64,000 nt of DNA. It comes from Eledone cirrhosa. Lineage: Eukaryota. This document shows positions 8,729 to 46,225 of the stretch, in pieces. Positions within the stretch are counted from its first letter, which is position 1. Each line of letters begins with the position of its first letter. The notes under the pieces are model-generated. The model worked only from the letters and a program-made list of their open reading frames with translations, was not told the origin of the DNA and made no database searches. A program made the translations under genes and the position numbers. The DNA lies in contig OZ024749.1 in assembly GCA_964016885.1 (NCBI GenBank), positions 55,366,001 to 55,430,000 on the forward strand, given 5' to 3'.

Positions 8729-10034
8729 AATTATATTTACATATATTAATGGCATAAAGGTATGACTGTAGGCTCAGTGGTTTCAGCATGCAACCTCCCC
8801 AAGTTTCATCAGAGATATTTCCTGAAGAAGCCTGCAGAGGTCACAAGCTGAACTTACAGAGCTTGTGGTCAAACCTTTACTACATTAATATATCCACTCT
8901 GTATTTCATCATGCATTGAGTACTATTACAATTTGTAGTCTTTCTGGTTTTTGCACCACAGACACTCTGTATATATTTATATATATATATTCATTTACTA
9001 TGACTAAATAGCGAGTCCTGTTAGACAGGAGTTTCACCAGCACACTCACAGGATCATCAGCCAAGACTGTATTGTCTGATCATCCTGTATGTAGGCAGGT
9101 GAAACTCCAGAGTAAAAGACGCACTACTTAGCAATAATAAAATGAATATTAAACTCTACTTTGGTAAGGTGTACTCTTTTCTCTCATCCATCAACTACAT
9201 ATACGGATATATAAATATATGTATATATACATACACATTTATATATAGGTGTGTATGAAGCACACACAAACATACATTCATGGCTGCATGCCCGTTTCAA
9301 GATAAAAAAAAGGGGGTTACAAGAAGCTGTAGCAATGCATAGAAACTGTGAGCAATGTATGTTTTATAAAGGCCAAGTTGCCAAGCTAGGAGTAGTAGTA
9401 GTAGTAGCAGTAGTAATGGTAGCAGTAGTAGTAATAGTAGTTGTAGTAGCACGTGTGGGAACAAAAAATACTTTTGGTATAAGTGTGTGTGTGTGAATAT
9501 GTGTGAGCATGTGTGTATGAGTGTGTTTTGTTCTTTTTTTTTTAAAGTTTTATTTTGAATATGCACTTGCCAAAAGCTGTAACACCACTCCTACTACTAC
9601 CACTACTACTATTACTACTATTACTACTACTACAACCACAGCTGCAAACACTGAAACCAGCACTGTTATCATCACCAGCATCATCACACCACCAATACCA
9701 TCACCATCACCAGTAACAGTACCACCACCACCACCACCACCACCACAACCATGTCTGCTCCAACATAACCACCACGAGAACCACCACCACCACCACCACC
9801 ACTGCTGTGACATGTGATTTGCCCACCATTGCCGATGGCTGGCTGGCAATGACATGGTGAGCCCGTCTCTCTGTCTCTGTGCCTGATTTGCCTTGTCTGT
9901 CTGTCTGCCTGCCTGTGTGCCTGTCTGCCTGTTTGACTGCCTGTCTGTCTGCCTGCCTCATGACTGGGTACTGCTAGGCTGATGTAGGCCACCGGGTCCA
10001 TCCGTTTGGACTATGAGCCAGCTGGGCAGATGTG

Positions 10035-10234
10035 NNNNNNNNNNNNNNNNNNNNNNNNNNNNNNNNNNNNNNNNNNNNNNNNNNNNNNNNNNNNNNNNNN
10101 NNNNNNNNNNNNNNNNNNNNNNNNNNNNNNNNNNNNNNNNNNNNNNNNNNNNNNNNNNNNNNNNNNNNNNNNNNNNNNNNNNNNNNNNNNNNNNNNNNNN
10201 NNNNNNNNNNNNNNNNNNNNNNNNNNNNNNNNNN
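10035..10234. other. assembly gap (200 N)
   Basis: Run of 200 N. Confidence 0.99.
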
Positions 10235-12810: not shown

Positions 12811-14065
12811 CAGTCACCAAATGGGGAAGACAGTCATTATCAGGCTACAGCTGCCATATTAGATAGTTTCTACAACAGACCACAACAGTCACCAAATGGG
12901 GAAGACAGACATTATCAGGCTACAGCTGCCATATTAGATAGTTTCTACAACAGACCACAATAGTCACCAAATGGGGAAGACAGTCATTATGAGGCTACAG
13001 CTGCCATATTAGATAGTTTCTATGACAGACCACAACAGTCACCAAATGGGGGAGACAGACATTATCAAGCTACAGCTGTCATATTATGTAGTTTCTACAA
13101 CAGACCACAACAGTCACCAAATGGGGAAGACAGTCATTATCAGGCTACAGCTGTCATATTATGTAGTTTCTACAACAGACCACAACAGTCACCAAATGGG
13201 GAGACAGACATTATCAAGCTACAGCTGTCATATTATGTAGTTTCTACAACAGATCACAAGTCACCAAATGGGGAAGACAGTCATTATCAGGCTACAGCTG
13301 CCATATTAGATAGTTTCTATGACAGACCACAACAGTCACCAAATGGGGAAGACAGTCATTATCAGGCTACAGCTGTCATATTATGTAGTTTCTACAACAG
13401 ACCACAAGTCACCAAATGGGGAAGACAGTCATTATCAGGCTACAGCTGCCATATTAGATAGTTTCTATGACAGACCACAACAGTCACCAAATGGGGAAGA
13501 CAGTCATTATCAGGCTACGGCTGTCATATTATGTAGTTTCTACAACAGACCACAACAGTCACCAAATGGGGGAGACAGACATTATCAGGCTACAGCTGCC
13601 ATATTAGATAGTTTCTATGACAGACCACAACAGTCACCAAATGGGGAAGACAGTCATTATCAGGCTACAGCTGTCATATTATGTAGTTTCTACAACAGAC
13701 CACAAGTCACCAAATGGGGAAGACAGTCATTATCAGGCTACAGCTGTCATATTATGTAGTTTCTACAACAGACCACAACAGTCACCAAATGGGGAAGACA
13801 GTCATTATCAGGCGACAGCTGCCATATTATATAGTTTCTACAACAGACCACAACAGTCACCAAATGGGGAAGACAGTCATTATCAGGCTACAGCTGTCAT
13901 ATTATGTAGTTTCTACAACAGACCACAACAGTCACCAAATGGGGGAGACAGACATTATCAGGCTACAGCTTCCATATTAGATAGTTTGTATGACAGACCA
14001 CAACAGTCACCAAATGGGGAAGACAGTCATTATCAGGCTACAGCTGTCATATTATGTAGTTTCTA
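12811..14065. repeat. minisatellite, 75-bp unit, about 17 copies
   Basis: CAGTCACCAAATGGGGAAGACAGTCATTATCAGGCTACAGCTG... in tandem with interleaved variants. Confidence 0.95.
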
Positions 14066-15460: not shown

Positions 15461-15496
15461 AAGTGAAATAAGGTTCATTCAGCTTAGTTGAAGAAT
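15461..15496 (-). CDS. mbl: 36-nt microexon (Y)SSTKLNEPYFT, phase 1/1
   Basis: CCCTTTCCTTCTAATCCACAG|ATTC...ACTT|GTAAGT; differs from the 42-nt copy by synonymous changes and one 6-nt indel. Confidence 0.8.
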
Positions 15497-16292
15497 CTGT
15501 GGATTAGAAGGAAAGGGACAAACATATAGTGAGTGAGTAAACAACAACTGCAACAATAATGCAGTGTAATGTTATAAAACAAACCAACAAAAACCCAAAA
15601 CATAAAACTATGTGAGGTGAGGGTGGGGTGAACCAGACAGTTTTTGTATGATTAGAAATGTTAGTAATTGTAATATTGGTACAAGACCAACAACTTGCAA
15701 GGTGAAGGGGGTAAAGTCAATTATATCAACCCAGTTTATTCCTGGTACTTTATTTTATCAACCCCGAGCTTGGCTTTAATAAAGCATATATAAATCTCTA
15801 CTACAATGTTGAGTACTTTCATTACTATATATATATACATATATAGTAATAATAATAAATGTGAAGACTAAAATCCAAAGAGGGCTCGATAAGGATAAAT
15901 ATATATCAAATATATAAGAACCCTAGAGCAAATACTTATCAAAATAACAGATTAAAGTTTAGGCAAAGAATCGCTGCTTTCACCCTTAATGGGATCTTCT
16001 TCATTTGTGAGTGAATGTTATGAATGCATTTACATATCTATTTATATATATATATATACATGATGGCTGCCCCCTCATTATCGAGTATGGCCATTGCACG
16101 ATATAACATTAATAATAATTATCAATTAATGCTATCGTGCAATGCCTGTGCATGAAGATTCTTTTTAAAGTGAGGAAAGACAGTGCACTAAGCCAATCCC
16201 ACTCTCTGATAGAGACAGTAGCTATAACCCGAAAAGAAGAAAAGATCAACATAATCGGTAACTACTGAGCTGTAGATTTTGTGTCGGAGTTA

Positions 16293-16340
<48 letters not shown>

Positions 16341-16376
16341 CACACACACACCTGGACACCTAGTAGCTTACTTTAA

Positions 16377-16591
16377 CCCTTTAGCATTTACATTACTCTA
16401 TATATATTATTGTATTTTTGTAGTAAAGACTTTACCTTACATAAAATCTCACATAATATCAAATCTATGACATTTTGATATTTATTTTGAGAAAATTACC
16501 TTAACATCAGTATGAGTGGCCAGTTACAGCCAGTTTGAAGAGAAAGGTGAGAAAACTTTGGCCGGATATGACCGGTTTAAATGCTAAAGGG
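16377..16591. mobile_element. piggyBac-type MITE, copy 1
   Basis: TTAA|CCCTTTAGCATTTA ... TAAATGCTAAAGGG terminal inverted repeats; right TSD degenerate. Confidence 0.8.
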
Positions 16592-16841
16592 TCCACCCCA
16601 AGATTCATATGTTAGTATAGTCTATTGTCAGGTTTCTTATCATTCATGCGGTGCTGCTTTTGTTTTTAGTCAATGTTTATTTTACTATGGTTGGTGTTGT
16701 TCTACACCGCTACACCATTCACTAATTCTTTTGCTTGTTTAGATTGCCTGTCTAGATTCCAGATGCCTATACTCTACTAATGTATTGAGTACCTTTGTTA
16801 ACTGTGCTCACCTCCCAATATACAACAGGAATCCACCTCTA

Positions 16842-16899
<58 letters not shown>

Positions 16900-16956
16900 C
16901 ACACATATATGAGAGAGGGGGAGAGAAAGAAATAGATATGGATGGATGCATGTTAG

Positions 16957-16991
<35 letters not shown>

Positions 16992-17751
16992 ATATGTATA
17001 TTGGTTATGCATGCTTGGTTAAATACAAATAGATGTGCAAAGAAGATGTCTATTATCCAGTTTAATGTTGAATCATTCATACTTTTGTAATGAGCTGTCT
17101 GGGTAATAGATAAGAAAGATGATAAAAATAGAATGAAAGAGGAAGAGGGAAAAGAGAGGGAGAGAGAGGAAGAGAAGGGAAAAGAGAGCGAGAGAGAGAA
17201 AGAGGAGGGAAAAGAGAGGGAGAGAGAGGAAGAGAAGGGAAAAGAGAGCGAGAGAGAGAAAGAGGAGGGAAAAGAGAGAGAGAAAGAGGAGGGAAAAGAG
17301 AGGGAGAGAGAGAGGTGTATAATTTTTTGTTTGTATTTTTTTCAACTGAAATGACAAAGATATGACTGGTTGGCTTAGTTTTAAGCTATTAACTATAATA
17401 GGTGGCAGATTGGCAGAACTGTTAGAACAGATAGAAGGCTGTGTGGCATTCATTCCAACCTTCTGCTCTCTGAGTTCAAATCCAGCCAAGGTCAACTTTG
17501 TTTTTTATGTATTTAAAGTCAAGAAAAATAAATACCAGTTAAGTACTGGAGTCAATTCTTTTATATCTCTCACTCTTTCTATCCTTCTGTGGAAGAAATC
17601 TGCCGTATTCAGACGTGGGGAGAGGAAATGGGCTCCGCTAGGTTTATAAAATGCCCTAGAAATACTATTTGTCAATGTGGCACCCCTACAATTTCATCAG
17701 GAGTTACGGTGGCCGTCTCAGAAGATAGCTACAGGACCATAAATACATTAA

Positions 17752-17971
17752 CCCTTTAGTATTTACATTAGTCTATATATACTATTATATTTACTATTGT
17801 ATTTTCCATGTAAAGGCTTTACCTCACATAATATTGAATCTATGAGATTTTGATATTATTTATTTTGAGAAAAATACCCTAATATTAGTACGAGTAGCCA
17901 GTTACAGCCGGTTTGAACACAAAAAGGTGAGAGAATTCTGGCCGGATATGGCTGGTTTAAATGCTGAAGGG
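17752..17971. mobile_element. piggyBac-type MITE, copy 2
   Basis: CCC...GGG TIRs with TTAA on both sides; same internal sequence as the other copies. Confidence 0.85.
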
Positions 17972-18989
17972 TTAACTATAAACCAAGTTAAATTATAAAT
18001 AAGTTAGTCAGCATCAAGCTACTCTCACAAATTATGTAATATGACGTTGGTAACAATGTAATGTTAATAGTGTAAAGCTAGTGCTGTTAATGTCTGTGTG
18101 TGTGTGAGAGAGTATGTATGTGACTGTGTGTGTAAGAGGGAGTGAGTGTGAGAGACAGTGTGTGTGTGTTTGTGTGATGGTGTGTATGAATGTGTGATGG
18201 TGTGTATGAATGTGTGTGTGTATTATATTCAGTTCACTGGGACTTCACGTGTGAAGGGATATATGTGTGTAATATACATATTCGGTTCACTGGTACTGTG
18301 AGTGTGAAATGTGTGTGTGTGTGTGAGTGTGTGACTGTGATGTGTGTGTGAACGTGTGAATGTGTGTGTGTGAGTATGTGAATGTGTGTGTGTGTGTGTG
18401 TGAGCATGTGAATGTGTGTGTGAGTGTGTGAATGTGAGATGTGTGTGTGTGAGCGTGTGAATGTGTGTGTGTGTGAGCATGTGAATGTGTGTGTGAGTGT
18501 GTGAATGTGAGATGTGTGTGTGTGAGCATGTGAATGTGTGTGTGTGTGAGCATGTGAATGTGTGTGTGAGTGTGTGAATGTGAGATGTGTGTGTGTGAGC
18601 GTGTGAATGAGTGTCAGTGTCAGATAGTGTGTGTATTATATATATTTGGTTGACTGGGGACTTATTCAACTATCAGTTTGAGGTTATTTATAAATATATA
18701 TTTTAACACCACACACACACACACATAAATATATATTTTAACACCACACACACACACACATAAATATATATTTTAACACCACACACACGCACACAAATAC
18801 ATATTTTAACACCACACACGCACACATAAATATATATTTTAACACCACACACACACACATAAATACATATTATTTGTTTACAGGTTTCAGTCATTGCACT
18901 GCGGTTATACTGCGGCATATACATACAAATTTAATATTGGTCATGCTTGTGTTTTTTTGCAAAAATAATAAAAATAAATATATAGACAC

Positions 18990-20070
18990 CATCCCCCACA
19001 CCACCCAGCCTAACACTCCACACCACCTCTAACACACCTCAAGATGTATGAAAACACACCACCCAACCTTCTCTAACACCGCTCCAGATGTATGTATACA
19101 CACCACCCAGCCTCCTCTAACATACCTCCAGATGTATATAGACACTCCACACCACCTCTAACACACCTCAAGATGTACGAAAACACACCACCCAACCTTC
19201 TCTAACGCCGCTCCAGATGTATGTATACACACCACTCAGCCTCCTCTAACACAGCTCCAGATGTGTGTATACACACCACCCAACCTTTTCTAACACACCT
19301 CCAGATGTATGTATACACACCACCCAACCTCCTCTAATACACCTCCAGATGTATGTATACACACCACCCAACCTCCTCTAACACACCACCAGATGTATGT
19401 ACACAGACCACCCAACCTCCTCTAACACACCTCCAGATGTATGTACACACACCACCCAATCTCCTCTAACACACCTCCAGATGTATGTACACACACCACC
19501 CAATCTCCTCTAACACACCTCCAGATGTATGTACACACACCACCCAATCTCCTCTAACACACCTCCAGATGTATGTACACACACCACCCAATCTCCTCTA
19601 ACACACCTCCAGATGTATGTACACACACCACCCAATCTCCTCTAACACACCTCCAGATGTATGTACACACACCACCCAATCTCCTCTAACACACCTCCAG
19701 ATGTATGTACACACACCACCCAACCTCCTCTAACACACCTCCAGATGTATGTACACACACACCACCCAACCTCCTCTAACACACCTCCAGATGTATGTAC
19801 ACACACCACCCAATCTCCTCTAACACACCTCCAGATGTATGTACACACACCACCCAATCTCCTCTAACACACCTCCAGATGTATGTACACACACCACCCA
19901 ACCTCCTCTAACACACCTCCAGATGTATGTACACACACCACCCAATCTCCTCTAACACACCTCCAGATGTATGTACACACACCACCCAACCTCCACTAAC
20001 ACACCTCCAGATGTATGTACACACACCACCCAACCTCCTCTAACACACCTCCAGATGTATGTACACACAA
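18990..20070. repeat. minisatellite, 44-bp unit, about 24 copies
   Basis: ACACACCACCCAATCTCCTCTAACACACCTCCAGATGTATGTAC in tandem, more diverged at the left end. Confidence 0.95.
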
Positions 20071-20212
20071 CGAAATACATGTCAGGACAGTATTGAGAAT
20101 CATAACATTGAAGAGTAACAGAGAGGGAAAGATAGAGGACTGGGGTTGTGGTGGGAGGGATGGATAGAGAGGGAGGGGTTGTGGTGGGAGGGATGGAGAG
20201 AGAGGAGGATGG

Positions 20213-20246
<34 letters not shown>

Positions 20247-20740
20247 GGAGAGGGAGAGAGAGAGGGGGGGGAACTGGGAGAGTATAAGAGAAAGACAGAT
20301 AGAGAGAGAGAGACTGAGGTAAACATGAAACATAATAAAGCTACCACCAACGCCACAACAACAACAACAGCATGTAAACCATTATTAAGGAACATAATGG
20401 TGGGGGAGAGGAATATGTGTCAGGAACAATACAATTCTAACATTACTTTGGGGGGTTAAAAATAATTTGTAAACAATTATTACAGTTATTGCTATTGTGG
20501 TGGAGTTATTGTTGTGGTGGTGGTGTGGTGGAGATGTTGTGCTGGTGTTGTGGTTGTATTGTGGTATTGTAGTTTGTGAGGTGGTGGTGATAGTGTTGTT
20601 GTTGTGGTAGTCTGGTGTATGTTTGAGCCAAACCTCGCAGAAACCATTTGATCTGAGAGAAATTGCAGCCTAAATCTACCACAAATACTTACTACCCCAT
20701 TGTCTTTTTTTTTAGAAATATTTAAAATATATGGAATTAA

Positions 20741-21586
20741 CCCTTTGCCATTTAAATTACTCTATATATACTATTGTATTTTCACAGTAAAGGCTTTACC
20801 ACACATAACATTTACATTACTCTATATATACTATTGTATTTTCACAGTAAAGGCTTTACCTCACATAACATTTACATTACTCTATATATACTATTGTATT
20901 TTCACAGTAAAGGCTTTACCTCACATAACATTTACATTACTCTATATATACTATTGTATTTTCACAGTAAAGGCTTTACCTCACATAACATTTACATTAC
21001 TCTATATATACTATTGTATTTTCACAGTAAAGGCTTTACCTCACATACCATTTACATTACTCTATATATACTATTGTATTTTCACAGTAAAGGCTTTACC
21101 TCACATAACATTTACATTACTCTATATATACTATTGTATTTTCACAGTAAAGGCTTTACCTCACATAACATTTACATTACTCTATATATACTATTGTATT
21201 TTCACAGTAAAGGCTTTACCTCACATAACATTTACATTATATATACTATTGTATTTTCACAGTAAAGGCTTTACCACACATAACATTTACATTACTCTAT
21301 ATATACTATTGTATTTTCACAGTAAAGGCTTTACCTCACATACCATTTACATTACTCTATATATACTATTGTATTTTCACAGTAAAGGCTTTACCTCACA
21401 TAACATTTACATTATATATACTATTGTATTTTCATAGTAAAGGCTTTATCTCACATAATATCGAATCTATGACATTTTGAAATTATTTATTTTGAGAACA
21501 ATACCTTAACATGAATATGAGTGGCCAGTTACAGCCGGTTTAAACAGAAAGAGGTGAGAGATACGGCTGGTTTAAATGCTAAAGGG
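20741..21586. mobile_element. piggyBac-type MITE, copy 3, with an internal 60-bp segment amplified about 12 times
   Basis: TTAA TSDs and TIRs retained; tandem CATTTACATTACTCTATATATACTATTGTATTTTCACAGTAAAGGCTTTACCTCACATAA. Confidence 0.88.
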
Positions 21587-22628
21587 TTAATACAGCTGAT
21601 ATGTCAGAGAAGAAGACATGATGGTGACAGCTAGAGAGGTGATTGAATAATACATAATACAGGGAAATATTTCTCTTCAGTATTGATGTCGATGGTGGTG
21701 ATGATGATCATCATTATTATCATCATTCAATGTCCATTTACCCATGCTAGCATGGGTTAGATAGGTTGTCACATTACGAGAGAGACCATGTCTTGCTCAT
21801 ACAGATCTCTATTTTGGCTTGGTTTCTATGGCTAGATGCCCTTCCTAACACCATGTTACAGTATGGAGGTGATGATGATAAGTGCTAGAGGTATGTGTGT
21901 GCCCATGGGTCTTAAGTCTGTGTTAGTGTGTGTGATGATGTGCAAGCATGTGTATGTAATGCTGTTTAATGTATGTGAATATGTTTTTGCCCTTATACAT
22001 ACTCCATGTGTGTTTATGTATATATGCGCATATGTATGCATTCATATAATTTTCTACATGCACACACATGCATGTATGCATGTGTGTATAAACAAAATAT
22101 ACATTACTATCTGTATACATATGCACACACACACACACACAACAGTGTGTGTGGCTGGATGGATGAATGCATATGTGAATGAATGGATATGTATGTGCAT
22201 GTGTGTGTGTTATGTGTGTATGTGTATATGTTATGAAAGTGTACGTATGTGTGTATATGTGTGCATGTGTTTTATGTGAATGCATATGTATATATACAAC
22301 ACAGCACAAATGTTACTAGAGATAGAGAGAGAGGGAGAGAGAGAGCAGGGGTGTGAGGGGGAAGAACTGGGGGGAAGGGTAGAGAGGATGAGTTCTTGGC
22401 TGATGCCAATAAATAACTCGGCAACTGATGCAGTGAGCAGGAAATTGCAAAATTTATGGTTCAAATTCATCACCGATATACAATTTAGTACAGAAATAAG
22501 TCACAATTACCCCCGCTTTCGGGCTTTCTCTTTTTCCTTCATATTCTTTATTATTTTCTTCCCCCCCCCCCCCCCCCTTCACCCTTTTTATTTTCATATT
22601 TTGTTTGTAACTTTTGTATTTTTATTTA

Positions 22629-22682
<54 letters not shown>

Positions 22683-22745
22683 TATATATAGAGAGAGAGA
22701 GAAAGAGAGATATACACATATATATATATATATATATACATATAT

Positions 22746-22791
<46 letters not shown>

Positions 22792-23786
22792 CTTTCTTTC
22801 TTCTCCTAGCTGCCCTCTCTATTATTGTTGTACCCTGATCTTCTTCCTTGTCTGAATCACCCAGCCACCCTACTACACCCCCTCATGTCATTTACTACTA
22901 CTACTACTACTACTACTACCTGGCTGGTGGATTGGCAATAATAATAATAATGAAATTCTTGTGTAGTGCTCAGGTGCACTACAACTCATCAAAGGTGTAT
23001 GTATAGTACATAGAATGATGTGCAAATGTCAGGTGGAACATCGGACAACATGCTTTGTGGCACAGAGTTACGGCCCTTTGCGTTCTGATTTCAAATCCCA
23101 CTGAGGTCAGATTTGCCTTTCATCCATACGGTGTTTATAAAATAAAGTACCAGTAATACTCTGGGTCTGATTTAATCAACTTTCCCCTCCAACCTACCAA
23201 AACACTTGGTCTTGCGCCTTAATCAGAAACCATTAGATATATGTTTTTAATGTGGTTTTTTAGTGGTTTTTATGGTTTAGTATTTTTTGTCAGACTGACG
23301 TAAAGTTTAGTCAGGGTTTATCTTTTGTCATATAATATGGAGAAAAACTGCTGTAACTTGGGCAAATAAGAAAACAACATAAACTGAGATATACCTGTAT
23401 ATGTTAGTAAACCATGAGGAGAAGCAGAGACTATACACAGTACACATATAATATATTGGGGAAGTAGAAACAAGGGAAGAAAGAAGTACTCAATACGTGA
23501 AGTAAAGTGTATTTTTTGTTTGTTTTGTTTTTTGGTTGGAAACTGATAATTCCATCTGACAATACTTAGAAGTTTTTACTAAAACAAAAGTATGAAGCAA
23601 ACCACATATACACACAGTCTAGTATTTTAGCTATATATACATACACACTGAAACATACTTTCACACACACACAAACACAGGCAAAGCTAACAAAGGAGCA
23701 TTTACATGGCTGATCGGCATGCTAGAAGCAACAACACAAATCTCCTTTTTATCACACCCTGTCATCTTAGAATATATATATATATA

Positions 23787-23911
23787 TAGCATGGGTTAGA
23801 CGGGTTGCCCTGTTGTGGGCAGTGCCCGGTCGGCTGACCATGTCTTGCTCATACAGGAATTGTATATATATATATATACACATACATATACACAGTTCCT
23901 GTACATATATG

Positions 23912-23964
<53 letters not shown>

Positions 23965-24037
23965 TTCCTGTATGAGCAAGACATGGTCAGCCGACTGGGC
24001 ACTGCCCACAACAGGGCAACCAATCTAACCCATGCTA
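23787..24037. repeat. near-perfect inverted repeat, arms about 85 bp, (TA)-rich spacer
   Basis: TAGCATGGGTTAGACGGGTTGCCCTGTTGTGGGCAGTGCCCGGTCGGCTGACCATGTCTTGCTCATACAGGAA and its reverse complement at about 23962-24037. Confidence 0.95.
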
Positions 24038-24273
24038 GCGTGGAAGAATGGACGTAAAATGGTGATGGTGATGATGATGATATATATATATTACTCTTTT
24101 ACCTGTCCCAGCCATCCGGCTGAGGCCATGCTGGAGCTATATATATATAAAGGATAATGTGATTCTAAATACAATGACTGGGCGGAGAGGCAAGATGTTC
24201 TTTCATAACGTTTGCTCAACAACAACAACAGCAACAACAAAGCAATATTTATGATATACAAAAAGTAACTTAC

Positions 24274-24315
24274 AAGTAAAATAAGGTTGAATTTCATTCA
24301 GTTTTGTAGATGAAT
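24274..24315 (-). CDS. mbl: 42-nt microexon (Y)SSTKLNEIQPYFT, phase 1/1
   Basis: CTTTTCTTTTTCTTAATACAG|ATTC...ACTT|GTAAGT; in frame with the upstream phase-1 donor; paralogous to 15461-15496. Confidence 0.8.
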
Positions 24316-24957: not shown

Positions 24958-25099
24958 ATGTTACTGGTAAGTATGGTTGTTGAAGTTGCATTGCAAGTGC
25001 CTGCTGGTAGGTCACGTTGCCAGGTTGATAGACTGGGACACCACTTTTACTGTCTGCCACAGCTACACGTTTGGCGTATGGTGCACCGGTAAGACCACC
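24958..25099 (-). CDS. mbl: muscleblind C-terminal exon GGLTGAPYAKRVAVADSKSGVPVYQPGNVTYQQALAMQLQQPYLPVT (142 nt, phase 0/1)
   Basis: Acceptor TTTCCTCTTGTTGGCACTAG|GGT; donor ACAT|GTAAGT. Similar to invertebrate Mbl KR..A.KSG.PVYQP and vertebrate YQQALANMQLQQ. Confidence 0.93.
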
Positions 25100-25637: not shown

Positions 25638-26050
25638 TGAACTTGTTTCAAATGTGACTTGATCTGAGATCAGGATGAAGTTGTTTCAAATGTGACTTGA
25701 TCTGAGGTTAGGATGAACTTGTTTCAAATGTGACTTGATCTGAGATCAGGATGAAGTTGTTTCAAAAGTGACTTGATCAGGGATGAAGATGAACTTGTGT
25801 CAAAAGTGATATGATGAGACCAGGATGAACATGTTTCAAATGTGATATGATCTGAGATTAGGATGACCATGTTTCAAAAGTAAAATGATCTGAGACCAGG
25901 ATGAACTTGTTTCAAATGTGACTTGATCTGAGGTTAGGATGAACTTGTTTCAAATGTGACTTGATCTGAGATCAGAATGAACTTGTTTCAAAAGTGATAT
26001 GATCCAGGATCAAGACGAACTTGCTTCAAAAGTGACTTGATCTAGATCAG
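25638..26050. repeat. degenerate minisatellite, about 38-bp unit, about 11 copies
   Basis: GAACTTGTTTCAAATGTGACTTGATCTGAGATCAGGAT in tandem. Confidence 0.9.
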
Positions 26051-32467: not shown

Positions 32468-32536
32468 CAGAGTAACGAGATCGTCTGCAGGGTCACGAGG
32501 TCGCTTCTTGCCCGTCAAGACCTCAACCACTTGCGG
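32468..32536 (-). CDS. mbl: muscleblind 69-nt cassette exon with NLS (PQVVEVLTGKKRPRDPADDLVTL), equivalent of vertebrate MBNL1 exon 5
   Basis: TAATTAG|CCG...CTG|GTACTA; 23 codons, no stop, phase 0/0 compatible with both neighbours; KKRP basic motif; lies between the ZnF3/4 exon and the KR..YQQAL exon; YGCY-rich flanks. Confidence 0.88.
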
Positions 32537-32735
32537 CTAATTAGTATGCAGAGCACATGATGGCAGTTTGGCCAATGAAATGGCAGCATGGCAGGGATGG
32601 CAGCACATGACAACAGCAAGCAGCAAGGCATGATGGGTGATGAAAATAAAAGAAAAGCACCATTGGTAAAAACGTTTCAACCAACATGCATGAAAAAAAA
32701 AAATAAATAAAAACCATTATTTTTATACCAGAAAG
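32537..32735 (-). promoter_or_regulatory. intronic splicing-regulatory element upstream of the NLS exon: YGCY cluster in an AG-exclusion zone
   Basis: 12 YGCY motifs counted in 32541-32660; no AG on the sense strand for about 200 nt before the acceptor; UGCAUG at 32685-32690; U-rich tracts are distal rather than next to the 3' splice site. Confidence 0.8.
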
Positions 32736-45659: not shown

Positions 45660-45982
45660 TGCAACCCCAACTAGAAATCAGTGCAAGCAGAGGTAGTAGT
45701 AGTAGTAATAATAATAATAGTAATAATAATAGATCAAAACATACACATAGTGAGAACAAGGTGCGATGTGGGGGAGGGGAGAGAAACGGGCAGAGCAGCA
45801 GCATTGCAATAGCTGGACAGCAAACGTTAACACGGATGTATGAAAACAAAAGTTGTGTGATGGCGGTAAAGGGTGGACGGGTGGGCGGGGAGCATGAGCA
45901 GGCAACAGGACAGAAAAGCGATGAAAAGAAATTTTTTTAAAATTTTAATTTTTGCACGATTGTCAAGCAGTGTCCGCCCTAC
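45660..45982 (-). promoter_or_regulatory. YGCY-rich intronic island just downstream of the ZnF3/4 exon
   Basis: About 13 YGCY motifs in about 300 nt of locally GC-rich unique sequence. Confidence 0.55.
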
Positions 45983-46225
45983 CAGAGCTCGAGTCGGTGC
46001 AGCAGCAGCTGCAGCCCGTTGTTGCACGGCTTTAATCTGCGCCTGCAGGTGAAGTGGAGGGTGAAAATATTTGCACGAGTCCCGTGTACACTTTCCCTTC
46101 ATGTAATCCATACATACTGTTACCGTGTTGTCGGAAGGGTCAACTGTTACATTTTCAGGTGGGTGTGCATAGCGACAGTCATTAGGCTGTCGCGTGCAAG
46201 TACATCTTTGAAATTCACGACATAC
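45983..46225 (-). CDS. mbl: muscleblind-like exon encoding the tandem CCCH zinc-finger pair ZnF3/ZnF4 plus Ala-rich linker (243 nt, phase 0/0)
   Basis: Translates [22 protein letters not shown]...[50 protein letters not shown], matching MBNL ZnF3/4 (VCRE..QR..C.R...DCR.AHP; [28 protein letters not shown]). Acceptor TTTCTTTCCGTCTCTTTCAG|GTA; donor CTG|GTAGGG. Confidence 0.97.

What the first reader, a model, noticed from the sequence alone, without database searches (positions are those of the whole stretch)
15461..24315. Duplicated C-terminal microexons (42 and 36 nt) with synonymous-only substitutions
Two microexons 8.8 kb apart encode YSSTKLNEIQPYFT and YSSTKLNEPYFT. All five substitutions are synonymous third-position changes (TCA/TCT, TCT/TCA, ACA/ACT, AAA/AAG, TTT/TTC), plus one in-frame 6-nt indel, while the flanking introns are unalignable beyond the splice sites. 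This points to an old duplication under purifying selection. Both are phase 1/1, so 0, 1 or 2 copies can be included, and they echo the end of the preceding exon (QPYLPVT), giving a tunable PY-motif repeat. They sit where vertebrate MBNL1 has its 36-nt exon 7 (implicated in dimerisation) but share no sequence with it. I do not know this module from other Mbl proteins.
Basis: partly seen in the sequence, partly recalled or inferred. Interest (0 to 1): 0.82.

Follow-up and report, generated by a model that had tools for sequence, protein, structure and literature searches.

The report
Twin tiny exons in cephalopod Muscleblind
In octopuses and their relatives the splicing regulator Muscleblind carries a duplicated tiny exon whose two copies are spliced in together in every transcript seen, adding a conserved aromatic-rich repeat to a tail predicted to be floppy, where it likely acts as a fixed sticky contact patch rather than an adjustable switch.

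Summary
On the minus strand of an octopod muscleblind gene, 24274-24315 (42 nt) and 15461-15496 (36 nt) are paralogous phase-1/1 exons with 5 synonymous and 0 replacement changes (P 0.0007-0.002). They occur only twice in the 3.0-Gb genome and are spliced. The tunable 0/1/2 reading is not supported: 26 of 26 cephalopod proteins and 6 of 6 laid runs carry both copies, although neighbouring exons vary. Contigs drop rare forms, so minor skipping is not excluded. The unit is absent from 303 other fetched proteins. It sits where vertebrate exon 7 sits but lacks its sequence and its dimer-forming cysteine, and it has no PPxY. Best reading: a near-constitutive aromatic repeat in a predicted disordered tail, likely mediating non-covalent contacts; a PY-NLS-like signal is the rival. 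The exons are already in RefSeq models; I found no paper on them, and this scan had not noted them on other DNA. Side finding: the downstream last exon reads in two frames and can encode a third zinc-finger pair.

The parts
45983..46225 (-). Muscleblind exon for the second tandem CCCH finger pair (ZnF3-4), 243 nt, phase 0/0, alternatively skipped
   Evidence: Pfam PF22628 E=2.3e-28; tblastn to octopus Mbl; boundaries read from the sequence printed; present in 11 of 26 cephalopod proteins
32468..32536 (-). 69-nt alternative exon with the first KR motif of the bipartite NLS (vertebrate exon 5 equivalent); 12 YGCY in the 300 nt upstream
   Evidence: present in 11 of 26 proteins; conserved autoregulated exon per PMC10773944
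24958..25099 (-). 'Exon 6' equivalent (second KR motif, Gln-rich), 142 nt, phase 0/1
   Evidence: aligns with the KR exon of lizard MBNL1
24274..24315 (-). Small exon A, 42 nt, phase 1/1, 14-residue unit
   Evidence: spliced to exon 6 across 642 nt in X12, X5, X6, X8
15461..15496 (-). Small exon B, 36 nt, phase 1/1, 12-residue paralogue lacking two codons
   Evidence: follows A as a 36-nt loose end in X12, X5, X6, X8; intron A-B 8,777 nt
9958..10034 (-). 3' part and stop codon of an alternative last coding exon; its 5' part lies in the N gap 10035-10234. Its junction codon with B is a Cys in the RefSeq models
   Evidence: tblastn of P0036, E=9e-6; sequence; 12 of 26 proteins use it
23787..24037 (.). 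Dispersed inverted-repeat element (104-nt arms, 93% complementary) in the intron after A; holds 3 of the 8 YGCY counted downstream of A, with a fourth at its edge
   Evidence: 2,180 first-look candidates, 40 scored, in the genome; motif map

Best explanation
A small exon that follows the second KR exon of cephalopod muscleblind was duplicated, both copies are spliced in together in every transcript seen, and their conserved peptide likely acts as a fixed, twice-repeated aromatic contact patch in a tail predicted to be disordered. Shown: the duplication, splicing of exon 6-A-B, silent-only divergence, co-inclusion in all sampled transcripts, and restriction to the cephalopod clade among fetched proteins. 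Inferred: the duplication is about as old as the split between octopods and the unnamed sister group (likely squids and cuttlefish); inclusion is near-constitutive; each copy supplies three aromatic residues (Tyr, Tyr, Phe), all kept when octopod copy B lost Ile-Gln. Predicted and untested: these residues would strengthen non-covalent Mbl-Mbl, Mbl-partner or Mbl-membrane contacts, which is the job of the vertebrate tail, reached here without a cysteine.
For: 5 silent and 0 replacement changes at pS 0.60, so the constraint is on protein and not nucleotides; gene conversion would also have levelled the silent sites. In another octopod, copy B differs at 2 of the 30 letters seen, both silent. 26 of 26 cephalopod proteins have two copies, one of them a partial protein cut inside copy 2. 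The first search used exon 6 alone, so it did not favour inclusion. Those 26 fall into 8 combinations of ZnF3-4, NLS exon and last exon. The X12 and X5 contigs are 221 nt = exon 6 + A + B, breaking at the alternative points on both sides but not inside; X6 and X8 also run unbroken through exon 6-A-B, in an uncut output; X1 and X2 carry two 42-nt copies followed by the last exon. Both exons have consensus GTAAGT donors and no UGC in the 30 nt upstream. AlphaFold gives pLDDT below 50 for residues 293-384 of P0032, which hold both units. Tails with the short ending hold 11 aromatic residues in 13 of 13 cephalopod proteins against a mean of 5.7 (range 4-9) in 67 others, though they are also longer (78 against 60 residues). 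The vertebrate tail self-associates and anchors to membranes (PMC13227107, PMC10256740). In human tandem-duplicated exons only 15.6% of disordered residues are kept between paralogues (PMC9741552); here 12 of 12 aligned residues are.
Against: No binding or localisation evidence exists for the unit; the function is analogy. Logan contigs drop rare variants, tissues are unknown, and the loose-end and piece tables were cut (52 and 113 rows not shown), so tissue-restricted skipping is not excluded. The 26 proteins are not independent: 12 are isoforms of one O. sinensis gene model, and the O. vulgaris and Argonauta models may be projected by homology. Non-aromatic residues (Ser, Ser, Thr, Lys, Leu, Asn, Glu) are equally conserved, which suits a specific linear motif better than generic stickers. 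Between lineages the units are no more conserved than chance allows given a 5-8% background (P 0.11-0.26). Selection rests on only five substitutions.
Confidence: 0.5

Rival explanations
1. Each unit is the C-terminal epitope of a PY-type nuclear import signal (Transportin ligand), duplicated for avidity, and gives cephalopod Mbl a second import route.
For: A reads K-x5-PY with Ile two residues before PY; B reads K-x3-PY, so the deletion stays within the R/H/K-x2-5-PY consensus (consensus and the -2 hydrophobic remark from PMC2408616). 0 of 67 non-cephalopod short tails have the pattern in their last 60 residues; shuffles of the unit give it 3.2% of the time, 1.1% with the hydrophobic residue. 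The region is predicted disordered. The Sinanodonta segment that ends in PYFT reads H-x5-PY with Leu at -2.
Against: The motif was found after looking at several, so the shuffle values are uncorrected. There is no adjacent N-terminal epitope: the nearest KR is about 40 residues upstream and each unit is net neutral. B has Asn at -2. A constant second import signal would undercut the skippable KR exon, which keeps 12 upstream YGCY as expected for the autoregulation described in PMC10773944.
Confidence: 0.2
2. One reading: A and B are cassette exons giving 0, 1 or 2 copies by tissue, and the copy number tunes Mbl activity.
For: Both are frame-symmetric. The same intron holds optional exons in scallop, limpet and vertebrate proteins, with skip forms fetched (P0052, P0320, P0304). 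There are 8 YGCY in the 300 nt after A (top 1.6% of windows). Contigs hide rare forms.
Against: 0 of 26 proteins and 0 of 6 runs show a 0- or 1-copy form. About half of the YGCY after A lie in or at the edge of a dispersed repeat, and B has none downstream. There is no UGC near either acceptor and both donors are consensus.
Confidence: 0.2
3. The units are a tolerated spacer kept by splicing signals or frame alone, with no specific peptide function.
For: They lie in a predicted disordered tail; one copy tolerated a two-residue deletion; conservation between lineages is not exceptional; all other animals sampled lack the unit.
Against: 60% of silent sites and 0% of replacement sites differ between the paralogues. 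The unnamed sister group keeps two amino-acid-identical copies in 11 of 11 proteins.
Confidence: 0.1

Closest known systems
Vertebrate MBNL1/2 exon 7 (36 bp)
   Same: Directly follows the second-KR exon (alignment of lizard MBNL1 P0271 and monitor MBNL2 P0264 with octopus); small and frame-preserving; lies in an unstructured tail. B has the same length (36 bp per PMC6238595).
   Different: No sequence similarity (P 1.0 and 0.85); single rather than duplicated; alternatively spliced; dimerises through a cysteine (PMC13227107) that the cephalopod units lack.
Tandem exon duplications with mutually exclusive splicing (PMC9741552)
   Same: Neighbouring homologous exons of equal phase, old and conserved.
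   Different: Here both copies are included together and encode the same residues, so there is no substitution isoform, only a repeat.
Lineage-specific inserts at the same intron in other protostome Mbl proteins (scallop, mussel, oyster, limpet, Sinanodonta)
   Same: Same site between exon 6 and the last exon. The scallop insert is a partial copy of exon 6 (0 of 3,000 shuffles reached its score). One Sinanodonta model has a 15-residue segment ending in PYFT (1 of 169 proteins; P 0.007 uncorrected).
   Different: Different sequences and single copies; skip forms exist for scallop and limpet. Local alignments of the unit to 7 such inserts and to its own exon 6 were not significant; global ones reached 0.009 (Mytilus) and 0.02 (scallop) among 16 uncorrected tests.
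RefSeq/GenBank models XP_036367039-54 (O. sinensis), XP_014777742 (O. bimaculoides), CAI9737080 (O. vulgaris), GAB1605565 (Argonauta hians)
   Same: Already contain both units in tandem.
   Different: Automatic annotation only; no paper on the repeat was found.

Membership tests
Muscleblind (Mbl/MBNL) gene | Tandem CCCH zinc fingers of the Mbl type | tested here: met
   PF22628 E=2.3e-28; 90-91% identity to the octopus Mbl finger exon
Muscleblind (Mbl/MBNL) gene | Two KR motifs on adjacent exons, the first alternative (PMC10773944) | tested here: met
   Exons 32468-32536 and 24958-25099; the first is in 11 of 26 proteins
Mutually exclusive tandem-duplicated exons | Adjacent homologous exons of the same phase | tested here: met
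Mutually exclusive tandem-duplicated exons | Only one copy per transcript | tested here: not met
   Both copies in 26 of 26 proteins and 6 of 6 runs
eMIC/SRRM-dependent neural microexons | UGC motif close to the 3' splice site (PMC8797185) | tested here: not met
   No TGC in the 30 nt upstream of A or B
eMIC/SRRM-dependent neural microexons | Weak 5' splice site (fly eMIC exons, PMC8797185) | tested here: not met
   Both donors are GTAAGT; judged by consensus, no scoring model was available
eMIC/SRRM-dependent neural microexons | Neuron-specific inclusion | not testable with these tools
   Only contigs of unknown tissue were served; no skip form was seen
Vertebrate MBNL exon 7 | Position directly after the second-KR exon | tested here: met
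   Protein alignment A2
Vertebrate MBNL exon 7 | Same intron phase in vertebrate DNA | not tested
   No vertebrate DNA was fetched; phase 1 is inferred from the proteins only
Vertebrate MBNL exon 7 | Sequence homology | tested here: not met
   Scores 7 and 8; shuffle P 1.0 and 0.85
Vertebrate MBNL exon 7 | Cysteine that forms the dimer disulfide | tested here: not met
   No Cys in the units or in the short tail; a Cys follows B only in the alternative last exon
Vertebrate MBNL exon 7 | Alternative inclusion | tested here: inconclusive
   No skip form seen, but contigs drop rare forms
PY-NLS (Transportin ligand) | C-terminal R/H/K-x2-5-PY | tested here: met
   Both units; consensus from PMC2408616
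PY-NLS (Transportin ligand) | Structural disorder | tested here: met
   Prediction only: pLDDT below 50 over residues 293-384
PY-NLS (Transportin ligand) | Nearby N-terminal hydrophobic or basic epitope | tested here: not met
   No match just upstream to the hydrophobic pattern (pattern recalled, not from a call); nearest KR about 40 residues away
PY-NLS (Transportin ligand) | Binds Transportin and directs import | not testable with these tools
   Needs a pull-down and a localisation assay
WW-domain ligand PY motif | PPxY or LPxY (definition recalled) | tested here: not met
   No match in the last 95 residues of P0032, P0006 or P0004
Dispersed repeat | Many genomic copies | tested here: not met
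   2 matches in 3.0 Gb, both in this gene

The most novel reading that the evidence does not exclude
Cephalopods evolved, at the site where vertebrates gained dimer-forming exon 7, an unrelated duplicated linear motif that does the same job without a cysteine (or is a doubled Transportin signal), and that is skipped in particular neurons or stages. Copy number would then tune Muscleblind multivalency just upstream of a three-way C-terminal switch, one branch of which uses a dual-frame exon to add a third zinc-finger pair.
Probability: 0.12. Interest if true: 0.62.

Novelty: new variant of a known kind. Interest (0 to 1): 0.33.

Why it matters
Muscleblind is a master splicing regulator and the protein sequestered in myotonic dystrophy; how its disordered tail drives self-association is still being worked out (PMC13227107). 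A 14-residue unit kept letter for letter in two copies, at the exon-7 position and without a cysteine, is a natural test of non-covalent tail contacts, and a lineage-specific change in a cephalopod RNA regulator. The dual-frame last exon with a third finger pair may deserve its own follow-up.

Tried and rejected
No holder was on record as RNA in the run search; run types are guesses, but the GT-AG joints show spliced molecules. Re-laying X1 and X2 at 93% likeness to read the letters of their two copies laid nothing on the exons; one search gave 5 and 1 differing letters in 46 for the first copy in X1 and X2, which I could not resolve, so silent divergence between copies is measured only in the window. 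A degenerate pattern scan of metagenome contigs found 0 stretches. A region search with the repeat returned only the same 11 cephalopod clusters among 46 candidates of 169-541 residues. The ESM Atlas gave only Muscleblind clusters, all under 0.9. Origin from exon 6 or from bivalve inserts: local tests not significant. A third copy was sought and not found. Among the 25 longest of 1,288 inverted repeats between 15000 and 25200, the ones printed were simple repeats or a dispersed element, and none suggested a docking structure. The YGCY cluster after A was discounted as evidence of autoregulation because about half of it is in or at the edge of that element. Tran et al. 2011 was not held and is known to me only through citing papers. 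In the tree Argonauta groups weakly (99/55) with the unnamed clade, so the branching inside cephalopods is not resolved; no Nautilus or named squid sequence was returned.
Full report
What the window is. The window is G000:C9:55366001-55430000. The exon at 24958-25099 (minus strand) matches muscleblind proteins named for Octopus bimaculoides, O. vulgaris, O. sinensis and Argonauta hians at 96-98%. The exon at 45983-46225 is a tandem CCCH finger pair (PF22628, E 2.3e-28). The order on the minus strand is: ZnF3-4 exon, 69-nt KR exon (32468-32536), exon 6, A (24274-24315), B (15461-15496), and an alternative last exon partly inside the N gap. The common last exon lies 37,881 nt beyond B, outside the window.

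The observation. A and B have the stated lengths, splice sites and phases. Across 36 aligned nt there are five changes, all silent, at 8.3 synonymous sites (pS 0.60, dS about 1.2; P 0.0007-0.0023 under neutrality). The 100-nt flanks do not align better than shuffles. A genome-wide degenerate pattern finds only these two places, and a relaxed scan of the window plus 24 kb downstream finds no third copy.

They are spliced, and spliced together. In X12, of the same organism code as the runs that hold the whole DNA stretch, one 221-nt contig is exon 6 + A + B with a 642-nt GT-AG joint; X5, from another organism, is the same. X6 and X8 repeat this and extend upstream into the exon before ZnF3-4, skipping two alternative exons. 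X1 and X2 carry two 42-nt copies followed by the common last exon. Six of the 12 listed runs were laid, and 6 of 6 show two copies. Of 329 proteins fetched, 26 carry the unit and all 26 carry it twice: 12 O. sinensis isoforms, one each for O. bimaculoides, O. vulgaris and Argonauta (partial, ending in copy 2), and 11 unnamed assembly products (10 Logan, 1 JGI) with two identical 14-residue copies. No protein with the cephalopod exon-6 signature lacks the unit. The same 26 vary in ZnF3-4, the KR exon and the last exon (8 combinations), so the data do reveal alternative splicing elsewhere. Limits: contigs drop rare variants, tissues are unknown, two tables were cut, and the named models are not independent.

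Age and range. In a tree of 18 proteins cut at the end of exon 6 so that the repeat plays no part, octopods and 7 of the 11 unnamed proteins form one clade (100/100), and those 7 form a subclade (99/96). That they are squids or cuttlefish is my inference. Exon 6 differs from X1 and X2 at 13 of 88 letters over about 23 silent sites, close to the A-B value, so the duplication is about as old as that split (roughly 270 million years, recalled). The 14+14 state of the sister group implies that octopod B lost two codons. None of the other 303 proteins has the unit; many join exon 6 directly to the last exon, and others carry unrelated inserts there. One hypothetical Sinanodonta protein has a 15-residue segment ending in PYFT at that place (1 of 169; P 0.007 uncorrected), a lead for an older origin. 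Across lineages, zero changes in 26 residues is not exceptional against the background (P 0.11-0.26); the evidence for selection is the paralogue comparison.

How it likely works. AlphaFold leaves residues 293-384 of the O. sinensis isoform P0032 below pLDDT 50. The two units add six aromatic residues; cephalopod short tails hold 11 against a mean of 5.7 in 67 others. The vertebrate tail mediates self-association and membrane anchoring (PMC13227107, PMC10256740), so I favour a fixed non-covalent contact patch. That step is analogy. The vertebrate exon-7 mechanism needs a cysteine, which the units lack. The position is equivalent but the sequence is unrelated. There is no PPxY or LPxY. Both units match R/H/K-x2-5-PY, the C-terminal half of a PY-NLS, but lack a nearby first epitope; this is the main rival. 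Features of neural eMIC microexons (UGC near the acceptor, weak donor; PMC8797185) are absent.

Side finding. The common last exon reads as the short conserved ending in one frame and as a fifth CCCH finger in another. A 116-nt phase-1/0 exon upstream would switch frames, and a further exon supplies the sixth finger. Matching third pairs occur in 30 of the 174 proteins held (queries: scallop, mussel, oysters, tick, sea spider, lobster), but in none of the 26 cephalopod ones, so expression in octopus is not shown. Drosophila MblF has a divergent second pair (PMC3315501) that may be the same thing; papers read describe one or two pairs.

Literature seen. PMC13227107: abstract, introduction, one results section, first part of the discussion. 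PMC10773944: abstract, results section 1, passages. PMC3315501: parts 1-2 of 6. PMC5041496: abstract and outline only. Passages only: PMC10256740, PMC2408616, PMC8797185, PMC9741552, PMC13044900, PMC6238595. Searches for prior description: muscleblind + octopus (2 papers, unrelated by listing), cephalopod + microexon (2), MBNL/cephalopod/squid (12 of 2,979 listed, one with all three terms, a review), third-finger-pair terms (7). None showed this repeat by listing. The library lacks most subscription papers, and I did not see supplementary figures S3-S4 of PMC10773944, whose alignments could include molluscs.

Verdict. The feature is real, selected and expressed, and is a new variant of a known kind: a tandem exon duplication kept as an additive repeat. 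The proposed tunable switch is unsupported by the transcripts available. Interest 0.33.

Noticed in passing
L005 1493-1579, L006 4124-4239, L005 about 327-440 (all minus; G000:C9, 12-24 kb beyond the window's low end): The common last exon is dual-frame: a short conserved ending in one frame, a fifth CCCH finger in another. A 116-nt phase-1/0 exon would switch frames and a further exon gives a sixth finger, so octopus Mbl can encode a third tandem finger pair like bivalve and arthropod proteins (30 of 174). It was not seen in any of the 26 cephalopod proteins.
   Followed up: partly
window 32537-32670 (minus): Dense YGCY cluster (12 in 300 nt; top 0.7% of windows) just upstream of the alternative KR exon, as expected for conserved Mbl autoregulation.
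   Followed up: partly
window about 45683-45982 (minus): 13 YGCY in the 300 nt downstream of the skippable ZnF3-4 exon, a possible autoregulated inclusion signal.
   Followed up: no
window 9958-10234: An alternative last exon partly lost in a 200-N assembly gap; it begins with a Cys junction codon and has a second Cys in O. sinensis models, so disulfide dimerisation could be isoform-specific through this exon and not through A or B.
   Followed up: partly
protein P0176 (Sinanodonta woodiana, KAL3846594.1): A 15-residue segment ending in PYFT right after exon 6, possibly a single-copy homologue of the unit; the model then seems to read the dual-frame exon in its third frame, so it may be faulty.
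   Followed up: partly
proteins P0016, P0065, P0095, P0177: Pteriomorph bivalves carry a longer insert at the same intron; in scallop it is a partial duplicate of exon 6 with short and long acceptor forms and a skip form.
   Followed up: partly
window 23787-24037: Inverted-repeat element with 104-nt arms around a TA tract, with thousands of genomic candidates.
   Followed up: partly
window 12811-14065, 19022-20069, 20749-21458, 25638-26050: Intronic minisatellites of period 75, 44, 60 and 38, ordinary for this genome.
   Followed up: no
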